Positions 21,699 through 30,063 of a DNA stretch of 43,096 nucleotides are shown here, piece by piece. Position numbers and translations under genes: made by a program. The notes beneath the pieces are model-generated. The model saw only the letters and a program-made list of their open reading frames with translations, did not search any database and was not told the DNA's origin. Each line of letters opens with the position of its first letter. The stretch's first letter is position 1. Source of the DNA: Escherichia phage SonjaBuckley_Bas74; sequence record PQ850627.1. The stretch is one strand, 5' to 3'.

Positions 21699-23879
21699 AT
21701 GTCAAGCGGATGCGGTGACGTTTTAAGCCTGGCGGATTTACAGACCGCCAAGAAGCACCAGATTTTTGAAGCTGAGGTTATCACCGGTAAAGCTGGCGGT
21801 GTAGCTACGGGTGCTGATATTGATTACGCAACTAATCAGGTTACGGGACAGACACAGAAGACGTTGCCAGCCGTGTTGCGTGACGCCGGGTTCAGACCTG
21901 CGCCATTCACATTCGAAACAGGTGGGACTTTGGGCGTTAACGACGCTGACCTGGCGGTGTTGTGGCCAGGGCCATCAGGCGACGGCAACTATTATGCATG
22001 GAAAGGTGCCCTGCCAAAAACCATCCCGGCATCTTCAACCCCGGCGTCTACGGGCGGAGTAGGCCAGACCGCATGGGTTGCCGTTAGTGAAGCTGCATTG
22101 CGCCGTGATTTGGCCCTAAGCACTGGCGCAGGGTTAGTTGGGACAACATCCGGCAGGACCGTACAGGCAGAGTTTGACTACCGCAAGACTCAAGCAGCAA
22201 AAACAGAGATAAACATACTTGACTACCTTCCAGCTAACGTGATCGCAGCTCTAAACGATGTTAACGCGTCAAAAGCACTAGGAAGCGTAAGGACATACAT
22301 TGAGCAGGCTTTAGCGGCAGCAACTAGCGAGAATATCGGTACTGGGGTTACTTTACGTTTCCCGGCTGGGTTCTTTTGGCTTGATTCTACTCTTAACCTT
22401 CCAAAAAGGACGCGTATTGTTGGGGTCTACCCAGAAACATACTTTATGGCTCTCCCTGACTTTACTGGCACTAACGTAATTGCCGGTTCCACAGGACCCG
22501 CTATAGTCGCTATTGATAACACAGGACAAGACCCGTTTTATATTGAAGGTTTCCAGATAAACGCAGATGGTTCCCAGCCGAATGTGGTTGGGCTGCACAT
22601 TGGCGGCTGCCGTAATTCCGTCGTCCGTCGGATATCTGTATCTGGAACCTTCGATGCTGCTGTTATTATCCACCCTAAAAACGCAACATCTGGAGACGTG
22701 GAGAACCTGGAATTAAGCCACGTATGGACATTAGGCGGTGGGCTTGTGCTCAGGACTAATACAGATATCGACCGTGGAAATTTAACAGGCCTGTCATTCC
22801 GGGATTGTATGTTTTTCAGCACAATCGACAACAACCCTTCATGGGCGACATCTGGCAACCCTAGTATCAGGTTCTCCTGCCATGTAGACCGACAGATTTT
22901 TGCATGTACATTCGACCGTGTAGGATGGGCGAGTCGCGCAACATACGCCATCTATTCAGAAAGCCTAGCCGGAAATAGTGCATCTGATGTCAAGGGCTTC
23001 CGCGATATTCATTTTACAGATTTCCACGGAGAAGCCCACAATGCCGATGGGTCATTAACAGCGGACTGTACTTTTGCCCTTCTTGCGAATATGCGTAACA
23101 GTACATTTACTAATATCCAACGCTCCGGCGCTGTGACTCGCGGCGGCATTATCATGGATGGGTGCGAATACGTAACATTCAACTCAGTATCATTTGCGGA
23201 CCCTAATATCACAACAGGAACAACGACACCTTGTTGCGTATACCAGAACTCCACCAACAGATTTAATAGATTTATTAACTGTGACTTAACAGATGCAACC
23301 GGGAGCATGTTTGATTTAGCCGGTCGGACCGTGTCAGCCAGTGTAATGTATTATTTTAATGGTCTTTTTTGGGACGATAGTGGGACAAGTACCTGGGATA
23401 GTGAACAAATGTCTTCAAAACCATTTGTTCTTTTTAAAAGGTCTGCGCTTAACGCTAATAACGGTTCTGCTTACCCGCAGGAATCAGGCGTAACTATGAC
23501 TACTTCTGGTGATAATCTACAGGTTACCTTTGCACGAGACGTTCCCCAAAAAACATTCACAATACCAATCACAACTACAAACGCGGTTTTCAACAATCAC
23601 GACCGCGTTTATGTTCTTTTCAGGCATCAATTTACCAGTTATGGGACAAATACTGTCGTAAAAATAGGACTAGGAACCTCATATGTGACTATATCACCAC
23701 AGAACGGTAACGATTATTTTGCAGCCATCAGTCTTGCCAGAAGCCAGGCAACTAGTTTTAATATCCAAGTTACCTATAGCGGCGCATCTGCAGACTGCAG
23801 CATATTAATCAGAGATTTAGTAATTTCTGACAGGATGCCGTGGGTGCCAAACTTCACCAAATCCTTACTTTGCGATTAA
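21699..23879 (+). CDS. tail spike / receptor-binding protein with beta-helix-like repeats (putative)
   Basis: 726 aa, last structural gene before bidirectional terminator; N/T/G/S-rich repetitive sequence suggestive of a right-handed beta-helix. Confidence 0.5.
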   Translation: MSSGCGDVLSLADLQTAKKHQIFEAEVITGKAGGVATGADIDYATNQVTGQTQKTLPAVLRDAGFRPAPFTFETGGTLGVNDADLAVLWPGPSGDGNYYAWKGALPKTIPASSTPASTGGVGQTAWVAVSEAALRRDLALSTGAGLVGTTSGRTVQAEFDYRKTQAAKTEINILDYLPANVIAALNDVNASKALGSVRTYIEQALAAATSENIGTGVTLRFPAGFFWLDSTLNLPKRTRIVGVYPETYFMALPDFTGTNVIAGSTGPAIVAIDNTGQDPFYIEGFQINADGSQPNVVGLHIGGCRNSVVRRISVSGTFDAAVIIHPKNATSGDVENLELSHVWTLGGGLVLRTNTDIDRGNLTGLSFRDCMFFSTIDNNPSWATSGNPSIRFSCHVDRQIFACTFDRVGWASRATYAIYSESLAGNSASDVKGFRDIHFTDFHGEAHNADGSLTADCTFALLANMRNSTFTNIQRSGAVTRGGIIMDGCEYVTFNSVSFADPNITTGTTTPCCVYQNSTNRFNRFINCDLTDATGSMFDLAGRTVSASVMYYFNGLFWDDSGTSTWDSEQMSSKPFVLFKRSALNANNGSAYPQESGVTMTTSGDNLQVTFARDVPQKTFTIPITTTNAVFNNHDRVYVLFRHQFTSYGTNTVVKIGLGTSYVTISPQNGNDYFAAISLARSQATSFNIQVTYSGASADCSILIRDLVISDRMPWVPNFTKSLLCD

Positions 23880-23908: not shown

Positions 23909-24045
23909 TACTCTTCCGATAACTTCTCCAGCACAAACGCCAGTTGCGCATTAGCGGCATCTCTCTGTTGCCGTAGGCGTAGAACCTCCTCTTCGAGTTC
24001 CTTGATACGTTTTTGCAATGCTGGAATCGGGGCTATGATGTTCAT
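23908..24045 (-). CDS. hypothetical coiled-coil protein (45 aa)
   Basis: ATG overlaps helicase stop (ATGA); uninterrupted frame to TAG; not in ORF track because under 60 aa. Confidence 0.4.
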   Translation of the reverse strand: MNIIAPIPALQKRIKELEEEVLRLRQQRDAANAQLAFVLEKLSEE

Positions 24046-25466
24046 TTCTTACCTCGTCTCTTCATGTAGTTAAGCAACTCTTCCTGTACCGATTTCTTCT
24101 CGTCGGTACGCGCGGCAACAACCTCGTCCAGCGTGTCTTTAGCGACTATGTGATAAAGGAACACCGGGCGCTCGTGCCCAGCTTGTTTCTGACGGACCGG
24201 GCCTATACGCTCGACAACCTGCAAATAGTGCTCAAGGTTCCAGCCTTGTGAGATGAATGCCAGATGATGTCCGCCGTCTTGTAAATTCAAACCATGGCCC
24301 GCTGACGCAGGATGTACGCATAAGATTTCTACTTCACCGCGGTTCCACGCTTCCATCTGCTTATTACCCCTGACACCTTTGGCAAAGGCCTGTGCTTGTG
24401 GGAATCGCTTAAGGATGCGCTCCAGTTCGTGCTTGAACTGATAGGCCACCAGTAACGGTGCCCCCTGTAACTCCTCAACAATGGACTCGAGCGCATCAAG
24501 TTTCGTGTCGTGCACTTTCTCCCATTCTTTGGTTGATTCGCCATCTGGCCCCGATACATACACGGCACCGGAGGCAATCTGTAGGCACTTCGACGTCTTC
24601 GCCGCAGCGTTAGCCGCTTCAACTTCTCCGCTTTCCAGTTCCGCGAATAACTTCTCCTCCATATCGATGTACGCCTGACGTGCTTTCTTCGGCAGGTCGA
24701 TTTCAACCGGCACAATAATCGGCGCTTCACACCCGAACCACTCGGCGGCGTCAATCGTGAGACTAATGTCCTTCATCTTCTGGTGAATTTCATTATCCGC
24801 ACCCGGGCGTGCGTGGTATTCACGGGCCATCGCAGATTTCCCTTTCTGTACCGAGTTAAACCAGCGGTCGGTGAATGCTGTGTACGATGACCCCAGGCGC
24901 TCGCCTGCGTCGATAAACCAGTTCTGCCCCCACAAGTCCTTGAGGCCGTTTGGTGACGGCGTGCCAGTCAGGTTAATGAAACGCTTAACTTTGCCAAATG
25001 CCACTTTACTAAGCGCCTTTGCCCTCTTGCTGCCGCCTGAACGGCTGCGGAATGACTTCAGTTTCGTGCTTTCATCGGCAACGATAACGGTAAAAGGCCA
25101 GTCGTCTTTGCCGTAGTAGTCAATCAACCACTCTATTACCTCATAGTTCGTGCACACCACGTTAGCGTCCGACTCCAGCGCCGCGATGCGGCGCTTCTCT
25201 GAACCGGTCGCGTCTACGACACGCAGACATGGGAAATTCCACTTAGTTTGTTCCGCCGGCCATGTGCCTGATGCAACGCGCAACGGGGCGAGGATTAACA
25301 CGCGGTCCTCTTCTGTAAGCTGCCCGTTGCGGAACAGTCGGTTTAATGTCCACAGTACGCTGCCAGTCTTCCCGGCGCCCATGCTCGCCCAAATATTACA
25401 GCGATGGTGCCGCAACATGAACGAAGTCATTAGCTTCTGGTATTCGCGCCTTTGAAACTTACTCAT
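24042..25466 (-). CDS. SNF2-like superfamily 2 DNA helicase
   Basis: Walker A GAGKTG, motif II VIVADESTKLK, motif III LTGTPSPNGL. Confidence 0.75.
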   Translation of the reverse strand: MSKFQRREYQKLMTSFMLRHHRCNIWASMGAGKTGSVLWTLNRLFRNGQLTEEDRVLILAPLRVASGTWPAEQTKWNFPCLRVVDATGSEKRRIAALESDANVVCTNYEVIEWLIDYYGKDDWPFTVIVADESTKLKSFRSRSGGSKRAKALSKVAFGKVKRFINLTGTPSPNGLKDLWGQNWFIDAGERLGSSYTAFTDRWFNSVQKGKSAMAREYHARPGADNEIHQKMKDISLTIDAAEWFGCEAPIIVPVEIDLPKKARQAYIDMEEKLFAELESGEVEAANAAAKTSKCLQIASGAVYVSGPDGESTKEWEKVHDTKLDALESIVEELQGAPLLVAYQFKHELERILKRFPQAQAFAKGVRGNKQMEAWNRGEVEILCVHPASAGHGLNLQDGGHHLAFISQGWNLEHYLQVVERIGPVRQKQAGHERPVFLYHIVAKDTLDEVVAARTDEKKSVQEELLNYMKRRGKK

Positions 25467-26253
25467 TTACGGCCCCTATGAACGCCTTTATAAATTCAGC
25501 GGCTACTTGCGGGACGATAGCATTGCCGTAACCGCGCAATCGTCCCACTCTGGCGGGTACCCCATTAGCCAGCGGGAATGCGCCGGGTTCAACTGGCCTG
25601 AATTTTCCATCCCGGCATCCGAGCCAGTCAGCATCTGACCAGAACCCGTTAGGCGGATTGGCTGTGTCAGAGATGCCTCTGTTTGCAGATTGTGGCCCCC
25701 GTTCCTGCCCTGATGGCCTGCTCCCGCCGAGTTGTTCGCACACGGTGTTGGCCAGTTGCTGCGCTCCGAAGAACAATCGATTCCTTTTGTGCGGTGCGCC
25801 GACGCTACAAGCTGGGAGTACGGCAAACCCGACGGCGTAGTCTTCTCTTTCCAGGTGAGTTTGTAAATCGCACATCCACGATTTTGCAATTGCTGCCGCA
25901 ACCTGCTCCCCAAAGATGACTGGAGGGTGGCACTCGCTGATGAGGTCGAGGAGCACAGGTGCGAGGTGTCTCTGGTCGAACTGTCCGAGTTGCTTTCCTG
26001 CCGTGCTAAACGGTTGGCAAGGCGGACTTCCCGTCCATATAGGCGTATCTTCAGAAACTCCCGCAAGTCTGAGCGCGAGAGGCCAGCCGCCGATACCCGC
26101 GAAAAAATGACACTGGGTGAACCCGTCAAGGTCTTCTGGCTTAACTTCGGTAATGCTTCTTTCATCTACAACTCCAAAAGGTATGTGACCCTGTTTTATC
26201 AACTCACGCAGCCACGCGGCTGCGCCTTTATCCCATTCGTTGTAATAGTTCAT
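25459..26253 (-). CDS. DNA (cytosine-5)-methyltransferase, short form
   Basis: FAGIGG (motif I), PPCQPFS (catalytic PCQ motif IV), [16 protein letters not shown]; only 264 aa. Confidence 0.6.
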
Positions 26254-26441
26254 TTCGCCACCAGAACTAACTCTTTACGCCCGAACGCCGTAACGTTACC
26301 GGTTACGTCTTCAATAACCAGTTTACCGTTCGACTCGACGAACACCGTATCAACGGCAACAGGACGACGGGTCTTAACGTTGAAAATCATGTCGCCTGGT
26401 ACGATGTCACGTGCTGGTTTGCGGTCATATTCGTGTTTCAT
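26250..26441 (-). CDS. hypothetical protein (63 aa)
   Basis: ATG with AAGGAA SD; preceded by TTGACA-N17-TATAGT promoter; ATGA coupling to methyltransferase. Confidence 0.5.
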   Translation of the reverse strand: MKHEYDRKPARDIVPGDMIFNVKTRRPVAVDTVFVESNGKLVIEDVTGNVTAFGRKELVLVAK

Positions 26442-26757
26442 TTCTAAATTCCTTATATTGTTGGGGTATGTGCTTACTATAATAGTCTGCTATTAGGGTG
26501 TCAATCTGTTTTATCGAACCAACGACAAAAACATTTGCGCCACGTTTACGTATACGCTCGTGTTCCCGTAGCTGGTGCGGGTCTGGCTTAGTGTTTTCGT
26601 CTTTCTTCACCTCGACGAACCAGACGATGCCGCCGGGTAGAATTGCCAGCAGGTCAGGAGCGCCTGAACGTCCTTCGTAGGAAAGTTTACGAACGAGGCC
26701 ACCAATGGCCTCGAATCGCTCTTTTGCGTATTTCTGGATGCGGCCCTCTTTAGTCAT
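26425..26757 (-). CDS. VRR-NUC domain nuclease
   Basis: GAPDLLAIL...VWFVEVKK...HQLREHERIRKRGANVFVV matches the VRR-NUC pattern (PD-(D/E)XK-type core). Confidence 0.6.
   Translation of the reverse strand: MTKEGRIQKYAKERFEAIGGLVRKLSYEGRSGAPDLLAILPGGIVWFVEVKKDENTKPDPHQLREHERIRKRGANVFVVGSIKQIDTLIADYYSKHIPQQYKEFRNETRI
26476..26504 (-). promoter_or_regulatory. promoter TTGACA-N17-TATAGT (internal to 3' end of VRR-NUC gene)
   Basis: Minus-strand reading TTGACACCCTAATAGCAGACTATTATAGT; perfect -35, near-consensus -10, 17-bp spacer. Confidence 0.5.
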
Positions 26758-26906
26758 GACCGCAGCATCCAGGTAAGGAAAACCCAGCCTAGAATGGCAA
26801 CACCGGCAAACTGAAAGAACAGGCCGTAACAGAACATAGCAGCTATTCCCGCACCGAGTAACAGTGCGAGCATGGTTACTATGGTCCTAAATACAAACAT
26901 TGTCAT
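26754..26906 (-). CDS. small hydrophobic membrane protein (50 aa)
   Basis: Uninterrupted frame; stop overlaps VRR-NUC start (ATGA); sequence almost entirely hydrophobic. Confidence 0.4.
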   Translation of the reverse strand: MTMFVFRTIVTMLALLLGAGIAAMFCYGLFFQFAGVAILGWVFLTWMLRS

Positions 26907-26988
26907 AATACGCACCCCTCACGTTTCGTATGCTCAATCCCGCAGCGCGGGCAGATTCGGCAGTCTTCTTCATAAAACCAGTAAATTT

Positions 26989-27120
26989 TCATTCCAGCAC
27001 CCACATATAAATTGCGATGAACATGCCCAATATGGCAACCATCATGCCGTATTGTCCCTCGTGACAGTAGACACCGGCGGCAAATCCCGCCAGTACCGCG
27101 ATAATCAGTTTACTTGGCAT
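26989..27120 (-). CDS. small hydrophobic membrane protein (43 aa)
   Basis: ATG with AAGGAGA SD; two hydrophobic segments. Confidence 0.4.
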   Translation of the reverse strand: MPSKLIIAVLAGFAAGVYCHEGQYGMMVAILGMFIAIYMWVLE

Positions 27121-27805
27121 CTCTACATTCTCCTTCAGGCCACCTATTAGGAAAAGACGGTATATGTGAAACTTCTCTCGCCGCTTTTATTCTTTTAATG
27201 GTGGGACCTATCTCCGTAACCATTTCAATGAATGTAAACCGGTGTCCTCTGGTAAGATTACATGTCTGACAACAAGAAACGCAGTTAGATACTATGTGCC
27301 CGCTTGTATTATCTATGCGGTCTACCCCGACTTTTGTAGTGCTTCCGCAATAATGGCATGGCTGTGATATTAGTTTAATAACGCTTTCCAGTGTTAAATC
27401 GCAGATAAGCCCTTTTCCTGAATCTGCTCTTTTGTATCCTAACAAAAGCGCGTACGCCCGCGTCCTTTGGTCCTTATTCACCAGTTCCCTGCGTTGCTTG
27501 TTGAGACACTCCCGGCAATCTTTCCTGATATGAGAGCCATTACTTTTATTTCCTTTCCTGAAGTTTTCCTCTGTTAAAGGTTTTACCTCCCCACACTTTC
27601 TGCATTTAACAGGCTTCCCAGTGAAAACATACCAAGGGCTTTCTCGTCTGGATTTACCTTGTAATTTAAGTTTTTCGTCATACTTTTCCTTCCTGTTAGC
27701 ATTTACACACTCTTTACACCAGCGTTGCAGCCCGAGGCGCGTTGACTTTGAAAAATACTCTGTAGTCGCCGGTTTATCTTCGCCGCATCTTGAACACTTT
27801 TTCAT
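27110..27805 (-). CDS. HNH homing-type endonuclease
   Basis: Cys pairs CSRCG, CKEC, CRKCG, CREC plus CHYCG...GVDRIDN...H core; ATG at 27805 with GGAG SD (ORF track TTG start at 27817); inserted between polymerase terminator and nuclease genes. Confidence 0.7.
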   Translation of the reverse strand: MKKCSRCGEDKPATTEYFSKSTRLGLQRWCKECVNANRKEKYDEKLKLQGKSRRESPWYVFTGKPVKCRKCGEVKPLTEENFRKGNKSNGSHIRKDCRECLNKQRRELVNKDQRTRAYALLLGYKRADSGKGLICDLTLESVIKLISQPCHYCGSTTKVGVDRIDNTSGHIVSNCVSCCQTCNLTRGHRFTFIEMVTEIGPTIKRIKAAREVSHIPSFPNRWPEGECRDAK

Positions 27806-27815
27806 TAATAACTCC

Positions 27816-27850
27816 AAAAAAAAATACCGACATAGCCATTATATCGGTAT
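27816..27850 (-). terminator. intrinsic terminator after DNA polymerase gene (minus strand)
   Basis: ATACCGA/TCGGTAT stem followed on the minus strand by a run of nine T. Confidence 0.7.
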
Positions 27851-27882
27851 TTACATTTTCTACAACGTATTTCCTAAATCTA

Positions 27883-30063
27883 CTACTTGGCGTATCTGTA
27901 CATTTCGCTACCTTCTGCTACAAGAGGGAACCCCTCCGCCCATTCCGGTAATTCACACATCAACCGCTCAAGCTCTGCAACATTGTATTCCGGTAAATCA
28001 GGTGTCTCGCAGATAATCTCATCGTGTACGTGAAGTACAATCGGGTAGCCGTTTGCTTCTACGTTCAGCAGGGCATTAGCCAGCAAATCACGGCACAATG
28101 CCTGAGTGCAGTTTTCCACCAGTTTACCCGAGTAGGTGTACTGGAACCCCCACTGACGGGTTAGCTGATTTTCGCCCTGGTACTTAATGCGCACGTTAGT
28201 AGACACTTTTCCATCTTCGTCTGTTTCTTTCGACACGCTCAACCCGACGCCCGGATAAGACATAACGCGACCCGACGGCAACGTCATGCGCAACCACCAG
28301 CCGGCGACTTTGTTGCCGTTGTTGTCTGTCTCTACGTTGCGCGAAAACTTAACCCCCCTAGGCCCCGCGGTGAACTCTTTACCTGGATTGCGGATAGCGG
28401 CCATAGCTGCGTCTTCAATATCTCGCCAGAAAGCTACTGTTTCAGGGTGTGACTCTCGCCACATACGCTTGATAGCGTCACAGGTACGCCACACTTTCTT
28501 ATCAAGAATATACGATGGTCGGTCATCCTTCTCCCCGGGTCGCGGCGGTCGCTTGGCTTCCTGAATACGTGCCCATTCATAGCCGCGTGCAGTAGCCGCC
28601 CAGATGTGGTCCGGGAAAGTACCGTCCATTGTTTTTGACATATCAACAAGGTCAAGTCCGAGGTTCTTAGCAAACTGAACGAAAGCGCCAACACCACCAG
28701 CGTAGCCGAGGCCAAGCTCGCAGGCTTTACCAATCTGGCGCAAGTCTTTGCGTTCCTTCTTAATGTAATCCGGCTCCATGCCGAACATCTTACCCGCGGT
28801 TACACAGTAAATGTCCAGCCCGGCGCGGAACGTATCTAGCGCGGTTTCTTCGCCTGCCAGCCACGCAAGCCCCCGACCTTCAACGTTAGAGTAATCGGCG
28901 ACGACAAACTTTTTTCCGGCTTCCGGGATAATGCAGCTACGCACCGTCGATGCCGTTAGCTTAGCGACATCGAAACGGCGATGCGCGCGGCCCTTAAGTA
29001 ACGCTGAAATACCTTTATCCAGTTCATCATCGTGATAGTACCCACGCGCGAGGTTCTGCGGCTGAAATCCTTTACCGGCAAATCGTAATGTACGCTTGGC
29101 TCCGCCGTACTGAATGCAACCACGACGGCGGTCGTCCGACGAGCGCCCTAACAGCAGCGGGTTATATTTCGTTGACGCTGTGGACGCGGCCCCGAGGCGC
29201 ATTTCGATAATCGTGCGTGCGTCGTCCGGTAAATCATCATCCGCCAACAGGTCGTTAAGCGTAGACTTCTGCGCGTTGTGGATGCGGTGCGCTGGTGCAA
29301 GTTCACGCAGAATCGGCAGGAAGTCTTTACCAGTAAGCGAGCCGCCGTATTTGCGCTGTGCTTCTTCCTGTAGCTGGGCCTTGTGTTTTTCCACGGCTTC
29401 AATCGCGGCTTCCGCCAGCGTCACATCAACCTTAAACCCACGGTCGTTAATCAACTGGTCCAGTTCCAGTACACGGTCTTCGAACTCGGAGTTACCCCAA
29501 CGCGGCAGCTTATGGAAGACTTCACGCATCGCAGTGATGTCGCTCACGGCGTACCTGATGAACATCGCCCACTCGTCAGGGTGAGTTTCTGCGGTGTAGC
29601 GGCGGATTTTGTAGTTCTTCGGCGTCGGTTTAGAGAAACGCTTAATCAGAGCCTTGCCGCGTTTATCTTTCGCGTTGTCTGCAGACACGCCCAGCACTTC
29701 GCACAGCGCATCAAGAGAACCCGGCAGCGCGTGACGGAACGCCCAAATCATAGTATCAATGGTGTTACTTACCGGAATATCAAAGTCCCAGCAGTGTTTC
29801 ATGATTAGGCGATCGAAAAGTCCACCGTTGTGCCACACCATCTTGATGCGGCTGTTGGGCTTAACAAGGCGGCGCAGTGCGCGGTGTAAATCCCCCGGCA
29901 TGTCGCTGCCGTCGGTGCAATCCCATACCCGCACAGGTTCGTCGTCAAAAGCATATGTACAGATAAGCACTTCGGTTGACGGGTGTTCGGCGTAAGCGTA
30001 AGAACCGACTTTCTTCAAATCGGCTTCTGAGAATGTTTCAAAGTCTAAGAACAGGTAACTCAT
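27883..30063 (-). CDS. DNA polymerase I family (family A) with N-terminal 3'-5' exonuclease domain
   Basis: N-terminal FLDFETFS exonuclease motif; C-terminal RQIGKACELGLGYAGG and VLHVHDEIICE polymerase motifs; 726 aa. Confidence 0.85.
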   Translation of the reverse strand: MSYLFLDFETFSEADLKKVGSYAYAEHPSTEVLICTYAFDDEPVRVWDCTDGSDMPGDLHRALRRLVKPNSRIKMVWHNGGLFDRLIMKHCWDFDIPVSNTIDTMIWAFRHALPGSLDALCEVLGVSADNAKDKRGKALIKRFSKPTPKNYKIRRYTAETHPDEWAMFIRYAVSDITAMREVFHKLPRWGNSEFEDRVLELDQLINDRGFKVDVTLAEAAIEAVEKHKAQLQEEAQRKYGGSLTGKDFLPILRELAPAHRIHNAQKSTLNDLLADDDLPDDARTIIEMRLGAASTASTKYNPLLLGRSSDDRRRGCIQYGGAKRTLRFAGKGFQPQNLARGYYHDDELDKGISALLKGRAHRRFDVAKLTASTVRSCIIPEAGKKFVVADYSNVEGRGLAWLAGEETALDTFRAGLDIYCVTAGKMFGMEPDYIKKERKDLRQIGKACELGLGYAGGVGAFVQFAKNLGLDLVDMSKTMDGTFPDHIWAATARGYEWARIQEAKRPPRPGEKDDRPSYILDKKVWRTCDAIKRMWRESHPETVAFWRDIEDAAMAAIRNPGKEFTAGPRGVKFSRNVETDNNGNKVAGWWLRMTLPSGRVMSYPGVGLSVSKETDEDGKVSTNVRIKYQGENQLTRQWGFQYTYSGKLVENCTQALCRDLLANALLNVEANGYPIVLHVHDEIICETPDLPEYNVAELERLMCELPEWAEGFPLVAEGSEMYRYAK

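What the first reader, a model, noticed from the sequence alone, without database searches (positions are those of the whole stretch)
25459..26253. Short C5-cytosine methyltransferase with no obvious target-recognition domain
The 264-aa ORF has the FxGxGG and PCQ catalytic motifs but is much shorter than typical C5-methyltransferases, leaving little room for a variable target-recognition domain. It is a likely anti-restriction self-methylation function with unknown specificity.
Basis: partly seen in the sequence, partly recalled or inferred. Interest (0 to 1): 0.4.

Follow-up and report, generated by a model that had tools for sequence, protein, structure and literature searches.

The report
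Cytosine methyltransferase with hidden overlapping subunit
The short phage cytosine-methyltransferase gene is real, and its "missing" DNA-recognition part is most likely made from a second gene hidden in another reading frame of the same DNA, an arrangement shown by experiment in 1995 for the E. coli enzyme M.EcoHK31I but left out of this phage's closest annotated relative.

Summary
The 264-aa ORF exists at 25459-26253, on the minus strand. It is a C5-cytosine methyltransferase (Pfam PF00145 E 5e-16; motifs I, IV, VI, VIII and X). It has only a 41-aa variable linker where a target-recognition domain should be.

A 220-aa ORF lies wholly inside it in the +1 frame (25503-26165, minus strand), with its own GGAG-N6-ATG start. 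This frame stays open in 160 of 160 diverged relatives (212-497 codons). The +2 frame reaches at most 181 codons. Synonymous-codon shuffling gives P = 3.5e-4. The ORF has strongly conserved motifs ([26 protein letters not shown]). It also lowers third-position variability in the outer gene. In the variable middle, substitutions fall mainly on its own third codon positions, so it is the selected frame there.

This matches M.EcoHK31I. [quoted passage not shown]

Best reading: a two-polypeptide methyltransferase of the M.EcoHK31I type, with the nested product most likely supplying target recognition. The target sequence is unknown. Assembly of the two products is inferred, not shown. Both structure predictions failed. 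This is a new member of a known kind, and it is poorly annotated.

The parts
25459..26253 (-). alpha ORF (264 aa): large, catalytic C5-cytosine methyltransferase subunit with motifs I, IV, VI, VIII and X
   Evidence: ORF list; PF00145 E 5e-16; profile hit to M.HhaI structures; phrog_363 1e-81; motif coordinates
25503..26165 (-). beta ORF (220 aa), +1 frame relative to alpha and wholly nested in it: proposed small subunit (target recognition plus a motif IX-like segment)
   Evidence: The +1 frame is open in 80/80 viral and 80/80 bacterial relatives. A beta HMM scores at least 204 bits in 80/80 genomic +1 frames and 0/80 +2 frames. Synonymous permutation gives P = 3.5e-4. phrog_1008 matches at 8e-53. 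Some relatives annotate it as 'Mte8-like protein / methyltransferase'.
26172..26175 (-). GGAG Shine-Dalgarno for beta, 6 nt upstream of its ATG (26163-26165), embedded in alpha codons F-G-V-V-D
   Evidence: An SD-preceded start in the +1 frame is found in 64/78 distinct relatives, most often at alpha offsets +106 (AGGAGcatnnnnG-ATG) and +88.
26086..26106 (-). alpha motif I, FFAGIGG (AdoMet binding)
   Evidence: aligned to M.HhaI FAGLGG
26005..26025 (-). alpha motif IV, PPCQPFS, with the catalytic Cys79
   Evidence: aligned to M.HhaI FPCQAFS; invariant in the family
25768..25797 (-). alpha motif [14 protein letters not shown]. The same nucleotides encode part of beta block 1.
25782..25880 (-). 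beta block 1, [33 protein letters not shown], one of the best-conserved beta segments; overprinted on alpha motifs VI-VIII
   Evidence: Alpha third-position entropy falls to 1.16 here, against 1.60 in alpha-only codons.
25645..25767 (-). Shared hypervariable module. In alpha it is a 41-aa linker (GAQQLAN...TANPPNG). In beta it holds the WPTP-containing candidate target-recognition segment (WPTP at 25743-25754).
   Evidence: Length varies only here. The module is mosaic among phages. Substitutions between close relatives fall on alpha position 1, which is beta position 3 (57:25:28), and beta amino-acid identity exceeds alpha.
25536..25664 (-). beta block 2 ([23 protein letters not shown]) followed by the motif IX-like [20 protein letters not shown]
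   Evidence: Alpha third-position entropy is 0.98 here. hhalign lines it up with M.HhaI RKLHPRECARVMGYP, but not significantly.
25501..25644 (-). alpha C-terminal block [37 protein letters not shown] plus motif [12 protein letters not shown]

Best explanation
The locus encodes a two-polypeptide C5-cytosine DNA methyltransferase of the M.EcoHK31I type.

Alpha (25459-26253, minus strand, 264 aa) is the large AdoMet-binding and catalytic subunit. It has motifs I, IV (Cys79), VI, VIII and X, joined by a short, poorly constrained linker where a monomeric enzyme has its small domain.

Beta (25503-26165, minus strand, 220 aa) is translated independently from an internal GGAG-N6-ATG in the +1 frame of the same mRNA. 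Its conserved part (about aa 78-213) is proposed to supply the missing small domain: the variable WPTP-containing target-recognition segment plus the motif IX-like [13 protein letters not shown]. Alpha and beta would assemble into the active enzyme. That enzyme would methylate replicating phage DNA at a specific, still unknown sequence, giving narrow protection against cognate host restriction enzymes.

Shown here:
- alpha belongs to the C5-methyltransferase family;
- beta exists, is conserved, is under purifying selection and has an SD-preceded start;
- the variable module is selected in the beta frame.

Inferred:
- heterodimer assembly and the requirement for both chains, by analogy with experiments on M.EcoHK31I;
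- target recognition residing in beta;
- the anti-restriction role.
For: 1. Alpha is a C5-methyltransferase.

2. The +1 frame stays open over nearly the whole gene in every relative examined. This holds in 80/80 IMG/VR loci with 43-73% alpha identity (220-453 codons, median 273; the +2 frame reaches at most 181). It also holds in 80/80 bacterial genomes from many phyla (212-497 codons, median 276; +2 median 39). All 80 genomic +1 translations match a beta HMM at 204 bits or more, and no +2 translation does.

3. Shuffling synonymous codons of the window gene gives a +1 run of 220 or more codons with P = 3.5e-4 (the +2 control gives P = 0.48). All eight +1 stops lie outside the nested ORF. In controls the longest open +1 run is 88 codons in E. 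coli dcm and 39-147 in neighbouring genes.

4. Beta has strongly conserved motifs, including in the region where alpha is hypervariable.

5. Alpha third-position entropy drops from 1.60-1.63 in alpha-only codons to 1.16 and 0.98 under the two conserved beta blocks.

6. In the variable module, differences between close relatives concentrate on alpha position 1, which is beta position 3. For L002/L004 the counts are 17:4:3, with alpha 78% and beta 93% amino-acid identity. The total over 9 pairs is 57:25:28.

7. An SD-preceded start sits in the +1 frame in 64/78 relatives. It is built from alpha's conserved D-E-R-S-I-x-D-V codons (AGG AGC ... G ATG) or, as in this window, from ttGGAGttgtagATG.

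8. The same +1 arrangement occurs in distant phages (Vequintavirinae, epsilon15, a Lacticaseibacillus phage).

9. There is an experimental precedent. M.EcoHK31I needs alpha and beta, and beta is encoded entirely within alpha in another frame. [quoted passage not shown] 1995 and Fung et al. 2006).
Against: - No direct evidence here that beta is translated or that it binds alpha.
- AlphaFold2 models of alpha (pLDDT 41) and beta (pLDDT 48) were unusable, so the idea that beta is the small domain has no structural test.
- Beta has no Pfam, NCBIfam or PDB sequence match.
- Its alignment to motif IX of M.HhaI and Dcm is not significant (hhalign probability below 1%).
- Alpha's own frame reads a weaker IX-like pattern ([15 protein letters not shown]) from the same nucleotides. 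hhalign places that pattern on M.HhaI motif IX, so alpha might not strictly lack motif IX.
- The literature on M.EcoHK31I places the TRD in alpha, not beta.
- Part of beta's apparent conservation follows automatically from alpha's conservation.
- The codon-position test in the variable module rests on few pairs, and some of them are related.
Confidence: 0.75

Rival explanations
1. Alpha alone is a complete, minimal monomeric C5-methyltransferase with a very short TRD. The +1 ORF is not translated or has no role in methylation.
For: Alpha has every catalytic motif, plus a weak IX-like segment that hhalign aligns to M.HhaI motif IX. Most annotations, including the 98%-identical Bas73, list only alpha. 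Beta has no recognised domain.
Against: The +1 frame is open in 160/160 relatives, with P = 3.5e-4 per sequence under synonymous shuffling. Beta has conserved motifs exactly where alpha is hypervariable. Substitutions in the variable module spare the beta protein, not alpha. A conserved internal SD and ATG is present. M.EcoHK31I alpha alone is inactive once beta starts are removed.
Confidence: 0.08
2. A single fusion protein is made by programmed +1 ribosomal frameshifting (alpha N-terminus, then the beta frame, and possibly back to alpha), rather than two separate polypeptides.
For: The parts would add up to a classical order: I-VIII, TRD, IX, X. Beta's N-terminal 77 or so residues are poorly conserved.
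Against: Beta's best-conserved block 1 (25782-25880) is encoded by the same nucleotides as alpha motifs VI-VIII, so one chain cannot contain both. The +1 frame is kept open from alpha codon 30 or so, far upstream of any useful shift point. It begins at an SD-preceded ATG in most relatives. The M.EcoHK31I beta chain works when expressed from a separate plasmid. I did not search for a slippery site.
Confidence: 0.05
3. Beta is a real protein but functionally unrelated to methylation, for example a regulator or anti-defence factor that was overprinted on a conserved gene.
For: Beta has no detectable homology to known methyltransferase domains. Some long beta-like proteins are fused to Dam or to PD-(D/E)XK/DUF2800 domains rather than to PF00145.
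Against: Beta-like sequence was found only under cytosine-methylase genes in 250 phage records. It always sits in the +1 frame, even with a differently organised alpha in Lacticaseibacillus phage R23.9. Its variable module coincides with the position where a TRD is expected. The M.EcoHK31I precedent shows such a nested chain is required for methylation.
Confidence: 0.1

Closest known systems
M.EcoHK31I (E. coli HK31; YGGCCR), a two-polypeptide C5-methyltransferase (Lee, Kam & Shaw 1995; Fung et al. 2006; summarised in PMC2836561)
   Same: [quoted passage not shown] Beta has its own internal start or starts. The N-terminal part of beta is dispensable for catalysis.
   Different: M.EcoHK31I belongs to a restriction-modification pair, whereas this gene sits in a lytic phage's replication module with no endonuclease partner. 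The literature places the TRD in alpha, whereas the selection pattern here points to beta. The target sequence here is unknown.
M.AquI, a naturally split C5-methyltransferase (alpha and beta from adjacent genes). From my own knowledge.
   Same: A C5-methyltransferase assembled from two polypeptides.
   Different: To my knowledge the M.AquI subunits are encoded by consecutive genes split within the variable region, not by two frames of the same DNA. Not tested here.
Monomeric bacterial C5-methyltransferases (M.HhaI, E. coli Dcm; Pfam PF00145)
   Same: The catalytic core motifs I, IV, VI, VIII and X align.
   Different: Those enzymes carry the TRD and motif IX in frame between motifs VIII and X. 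Their genes have no long open +1 frame: the longest in dcm is 88 of 473 codons. Alpha has a 41-aa unconstrained linker instead. Alpha also has an N-terminal YYNEWD segment that resembles motif II but lies before motif I.
Phage families phrog_363 (alpha-like) and phrog_1008 / phrog_31772 (beta-like; called 'Mte8-like protein' in K1-phage annotations)
   Same: The window proteins match at 1e-81 and 8e-53. K1ind2 and fTaEco03 annotate both overlapping CDSs.
   Different: These are annotation clusters without an assigned mechanism. Neither the records I opened nor the papers I searched connect them to the M.EcoHK31I architecture.

Membership tests
C5-cytosine DNA methyltransferase (Pfam PF00145) | Profile score above the curated threshold | tested here: met
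   59.4 bits against a cut-off of 22, E 5.1e-16. Only aa 72-164 are aligned.
C5-cytosine DNA methyltransferase (Pfam PF00145) | Catalytic Pro-Cys (motif IV), ENV-like motif VI, FxGxG motif I, RxR motif VIII and GNxxxP motif X | tested here: met
   [27 protein letters not shown] and [11 protein letters not shown] are present. They align to M.HhaI and are invariant in the family.
C5-cytosine DNA methyltransferase (Pfam PF00145) | In-frame TRD and motif IX between motifs VIII and X | tested here: not met
   The alpha frame has only a 41-aa hypervariable linker. The IX-like and conserved variable-region motifs are in the +1 frame. Alpha keeps only a weak IX-like pattern.
C5-cytosine DNA methyltransferase (Pfam PF00145) | 5-methylcytosine formed in DNA | not testable with these tools
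   Needs bisulfite, EM-seq or long-read methylation calling of phage DNA.
M.EcoHK31I-type alpha/beta methyltransferase | Second ORF nested entirely within the methyltransferase gene, same strand, different frame | tested here: met
   25503..26165 lies within 25459..26253 in the +1 frame. The arrangement is conserved in 160/160 relatives.
M.EcoHK31I-type alpha/beta methyltransferase | Alpha has motifs I-VIII and X; beta has motif IX | tested here: inconclusive
   The alpha motifs are met. Beta's [13 protein letters not shown] resembles Dcm LTPRECARLMGF and M.HhaI LHPRECARVMGYP, and hhalign aligns it there, but without significance.
M.EcoHK31I-type alpha/beta methyltransferase | Beta is independently translated from an internal start | tested here: inconclusive
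   GGAG-N6-ATG in the window. SD-preceded starts occur in 64/78 relatives at recurrent positions. Translation itself was not observed.
M.EcoHK31I-type alpha/beta methyltransferase | Both polypeptides are required and associate | not testable with these tools
   This is known only for M.EcoHK31I itself. The tools offered no complex prediction, and the monomer models failed.
M.EcoHK31I-type alpha/beta methyltransferase | Sequence homology to M.EcoHK31I alpha and beta | not tested
   The sequence could not be obtained: the Lee 1995 paper is not held, and PMC2836561 has no supplement held.

The most novel reading that the evidence does not exclude
In this very large family, the whole target-recognition function may sit on the overprinted beta chain, and alpha would be a recognition-less catalytic module. 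Specificity would then be exchanged among phages by swapping one short dual-coded DNA cassette that is selected in the beta frame. This would revise the textbook description of M.EcoHK31I, which places the TRD in alpha. In addition, most members (not the Lacticaseibacillus phage) may have a rearranged catalytic domain, with the motif II-III segment placed ahead of motif I.
Probability: 0.4. Interest if true: 0.6.

Novelty: new member of a known kind. Interest (0 to 1): 0.5.

Why it matters
This gene is easy to misread as a TRD-less enzyme. Annotating only alpha hides half of the enzyme. Anyone who clones alpha alone to determine its specificity, or who deletes or re-codes it in a synthetic phage genome, would probably get an inactive or altered enzyme.

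The nested frame is kept in every relative examined: phages of Gram-negative and Gram-positive hosts, and bacterial genomes from many phyla. The beta family has 9,650 clusters at 50% identity (E-value at most 0.001). That makes it one of the more widespread long same-strand overlapping gene pairs in prokaryotic viruses. It is a good natural system for studying dual-frame constraint, and a source of naturally split methyltransferases for targeted-methylation engineering.

Tried and rejected
- AlphaFold2 on beta (64-sequence alignment, pLDDT 48) and alpha (45-sequence alignment, pLDDT 41). Both models were unusable, probably because only close relatives were permitted in the alignments. No fold search was run.
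- Beta against Pfam, NCBIfam and PDB sequences: nothing found.
- Search for single-chain relatives with the beta-like region in frame with PF00145. Ten long beta-like proteins carried Dam, DUF2800/PD-(D/E)XK or no domain, and none carried PF00145. The Cr-LKS3 'methyltransferase' CDS that appeared to be in frame is simply the beta frame annotated.
- hhalign of the beta profile against Dcm and M.HhaI: the alignment falls on motif IX but is not significant.
- Retrieving the M.EcoHK31I sequence or the original paper failed.
- 'Mte8' could not be traced to a characterised protein.
- A literature search for this overlap in phage methyltransferases found nothing relevant.
- The N-terminal YYNEWD fragment scanned alone against Pfam gave no PF00145 hit, so the motif-permutation idea stays a lead.
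- I did not try to predict the methylated sequence.

Full report
**The observation.** The window is a Kagunavirus-like E. coli siphophage. The region 24000-28000 is 98.4% identical to Escherichia phage GertrudWoker_Bas73. The reported ORF exists exactly at 25459..26253, but on the minus strand, and encodes 264 aa. It lies in the replication module, which is tightly packed. Its ATG overlaps the stop of a 63-aa ORF, and its last codons overlap the start of an SNF2-type helicase gene. It scores well above threshold on Pfam PF00145 (E 5.1e-16), although only aa 72-164 align. It matches phrog_363 'DNA methyltransferase' over its full length (1.4e-81). A profile of the family hits the solved M.HhaI structures (E 1.7e-10). 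Motifs I (FFAGIGG), IV (PPCQPFS), VI (FGEQV), VIII (HKRNRLFF) and X ([11 protein letters not shown]) are all present.

**Why the protein is short.** The 120 closest database relatives range from 264 to 359 aa. An alignment shows a nearly invariant N-terminal part (aa 1-168) and C-terminal part (aa ~200-264). Between them is a single hypervariable insert of very different lengths. In the alpha frame this insert is rich in R, G, E and Q and does not look like a folded domain. In the window it is only 41 aa.

**The overlapping ORF.** The ORF list also shows a 220-aa ORF on the same strand at 25503..26165. It is in the +1 frame and lies wholly inside the methyltransferase gene. Bas73 does not annotate it. 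K1ind2 and fTaEco03 do, as 'putative Mte8-like protein / methyltransferase'. It matches phrog_1008 (8e-53) and phrog_31772. Below I call the 264-aa product alpha and the 220-aa product beta.

**Is beta real? Frame openness.**
- In 80 IMG/VR relatives whose alpha proteins are only 43-73% identical to the window's, the +1 frame is open for 220-453 codons (median 273) in every case. The +2 frame never exceeds 181 codons.
- In 80 bacterial genomes, one per species and spanning Proteobacteria, Acidobacteriota, Planctomycetota, Verrucomicrobiota, Nitrospira and others, the +1 frame is again open in all (212-497 codons, median 276). The +2 median is 39.
- A beta HMM built from the viral set scores at least 204 bits on all 80 genomic +1 translations and on none of the +2 translations. 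Part of that score follows automatically from conservation of alpha.
- Shuffling synonymous codons within the window gene gives a +1 run of 220 or more codons in 0.035% of 20,000 trials. The +2 control gives P = 0.48.
- All eight +1 stop codons of the gene lie in the 44 codons outside the nested ORF.
- Controls have no comparable open +1 frame. The longest open +1 run is 88 of 473 codons in E. coli dcm and 39-147 codons in four neighbouring window genes.

**Is beta real? Sequence and selection.**
- Beta has strongly conserved motifs: L..SL..RL...[16 protein letters not shown]....LRASARRTSG, WPTP / GWPTPTA, QP.RLT, and [37 protein letters not shown]. Some of them sit where alpha is hypervariable.
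- Alpha's third-codon-position entropy is 1.60 and 1.63 in the codons that beta does not cover. It is 1.42 under beta's poorly conserved N-terminal tail, and 1.16 and 0.98 under the two conserved beta blocks.
- In the hypervariable module, differences between close relatives pile up on alpha position 1, which is beta position 3. K1ind2 against Golestan-type gives 17:4:3, with alpha 78% and beta 93% amino-acid identity. K1ind2 against EP-M-A gives 11:3:4. The total over nine pairs is 57:25:28. In that module beta is therefore the frame under purifying selection.

**How beta is made.** In the window the beta ATG (26163-26165) is preceded by GGAG with a 6-nt spacer. Of 78 distinct relatives, 64 have an SD-preceded start in the +1 frame. 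The starts recur at two positions. One is offset +106, where alpha's conserved D-E-R-S-I-x-D-V is written as GAx GAA AGG AGC ATx xxx GAT G. The other is offset +88, as in this window. This points to independent initiation rather than frameshifting. A fusion product is also unlikely because beta's best-conserved block (25782-25880) uses the same nucleotides as alpha motifs VI-VIII, so no single chain could contain both.

**What is known.** M.EcoHK31I is a C5-methyltransferase made of alpha and beta chains that must associate. [quoted passage not shown] Alpha carries motifs I-VIII, X and, as described there, the TRD. Beta carries motif IX. Removing the internal beta starts abolishes activity, and alpha and beta expressed from two plasmids restore it. 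The N-terminal 42-67 residues of beta contribute to association but not to catalysis (PMC2836561, citing Lee et al. 1995 and Fung et al. 2006). The window locus has the same architecture. Beta's [13 protein letters not shown] resembles Dcm's LTPRECARLMGF and M.HhaI's LHPRECARVMGYP, and hhalign puts it there, but the score is not significant. I could not obtain the M.EcoHK31I sequence. Membership is therefore supported at the level of architecture, not sequence.

**Proposed mechanism.** Alpha is the large catalytic domain (motifs I-VIII plus X), with an unconstrained linker in place of the small domain. Beta, from about aa 78 to 213, is roughly the size of the M.HhaI small domain. I propose that it supplies target recognition and motif IX in trans. 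This differs from the published M.EcoHK31I description, which places the TRD in alpha. It rests on the selection pattern in the variable module, on that module being mosaic among phages, and on the conserved WPTP motifs. It is an inference.

**Limits of the evidence.** Both AlphaFold2 runs failed (pLDDT 48 and 41). Beta has no Pfam, NCBIfam or PDB match. One oddity remains. The same nucleotides read a IX-like pattern in both frames: [13 protein letters not shown] in alpha and [13 protein letters not shown] in beta, sharing the CCCG and GGGG runs. hhalign aligns alpha's version to M.HhaI motif IX too.

**Biological role.** The gene sits among replication genes with no endonuclease partner. Self-methylation of phage DNA against a cognate Type II system is the natural reading, but it is untested. 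Kagunavirus isolates Bas70-76 are reported as highly sensitive to the RM systems tested (PMC11990801). That fits a narrow, site-specific modification rather than broad protection.

**Distribution.** Beta-like proteins form 9,650 clusters at 50% identity with E at most 0.001. tblastn of beta aa 96-220 finds 250 phage records, and in the rows listed the match lies under a gene annotated as a methylase or methyltransferase, or under a CDS with no named function. In five distant phages that I opened, the beta-like ORF is the +1 frame of the annotated methyltransferase CDS. These are Salmonella phage NINP13076, Escherichia phage CarlMeissner, epsilon15, Salmonella phage 65FD and Lacticaseibacillus phage R23.9. 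In Cylindrospermopsis phage Cr-LKS3 the annotated CDS is the beta frame itself. R23.9's alpha has the classical motif order. The overprinted beta is therefore not tied to the N-terminal arrangement seen in the window's family.

**Verdict.** This is a new, poorly annotated member of a known kind, the M.EcoHK31I-type two-polypeptide C5-methyltransferase. It has one possibly new twist, that target recognition sits in beta. Its taxonomic spread is, as far as my literature searches show, not described.

Noticed in passing
window 26230-26247 (-) versus 26086-26106 (-): Alpha starts with [13 protein letters not shown], close to M.HhaI motif II (YSNEWDKYA), followed by [10 protein letters not shown], which looks like motif III. 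Both lie BEFORE motif I (FFAGIGG). Only about 14 residues separate motif I from motif IV, where motifs II-III normally sit. This suggests a rearranged order II-III-I-IV. The TIGR00675 alignment (aa 3-163 to profile positions 25-158) and an alternative hhalign path (E 0.012) agree with this. The fragment alone gives no PF00145 hit. Lacticaseibacillus phage R23.9 alpha has the classical order.
   Followed up: partly
window 25536-25580 (-): The same nucleotides read a motif IX-like pattern in both frames: alpha [13 protein letters not shown] and beta [13 protein letters not shown]. The shared Pro and Gly come from CCCG and GGGG runs. It is unclear whether this reflects how the overlap arose or selection on both chains.
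   Followed up: partly
window 27110-27817 (-): A 235-aa ORF with repeated CxxC...CxxC zinc-ribbon-like units and a C-terminal HNH-like CHYCG...N..SCC..CN segment. Bas73 annotates it as 'endonuclease VII'; Pfam gives only a weak Stc1 hit. Several close relatives cover only 76-81% of the 4-kb query, which may reflect absence of this ORF (a mobile homing endonuclease?); I did not check which part is missing.
   Followed up: no
window 21699-23879 (+): The 726-aa tailspike-like ORF is longer than the annotated tail spike of the otherwise 98%-identical Bas73 (1932 nt). This suggests an exchanged receptor-binding module.
   Followed up: no
L087 (phage P AB-2017), L088 (phage ST20), L174 (Cr-LKS3): In phage P AB-2017 and phage ST20 the only CDS annotated across the methyltransferase region is short ('Mte8-like protein' in P AB-2017, 'hypothetical protein' in ST20) rather than a full-length methylase CDS; I did not check its frame. 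In Cr-LKS3 the annotated 'methyltransferase' CDS is the beta frame. Bas73 annotates only alpha. Gene callers handle this locus inconsistently.
   Followed up: partly
P0243, P0244: Some beta-like proteins continue in frame into a Dam N6-adenine methyltransferase domain (497 aa) or a DUF2800/PD-(D/E)XK nuclease domain (758 aa). These could be real fusions or read-through of adjacent genes.
   Followed up: no
L086 (Escherichia phage vB_EcoM_SHAK7693): This record is classified as Autographiviridae/Kayfunavirus, yet it carries a Kagunavirus-type helicase, methyltransferase and resolvase block. Its alpha frame appears disrupted at the 5' end (annotated CDS 289 aa). This may be a taxonomy error or an assembly error.
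   Followed up: no
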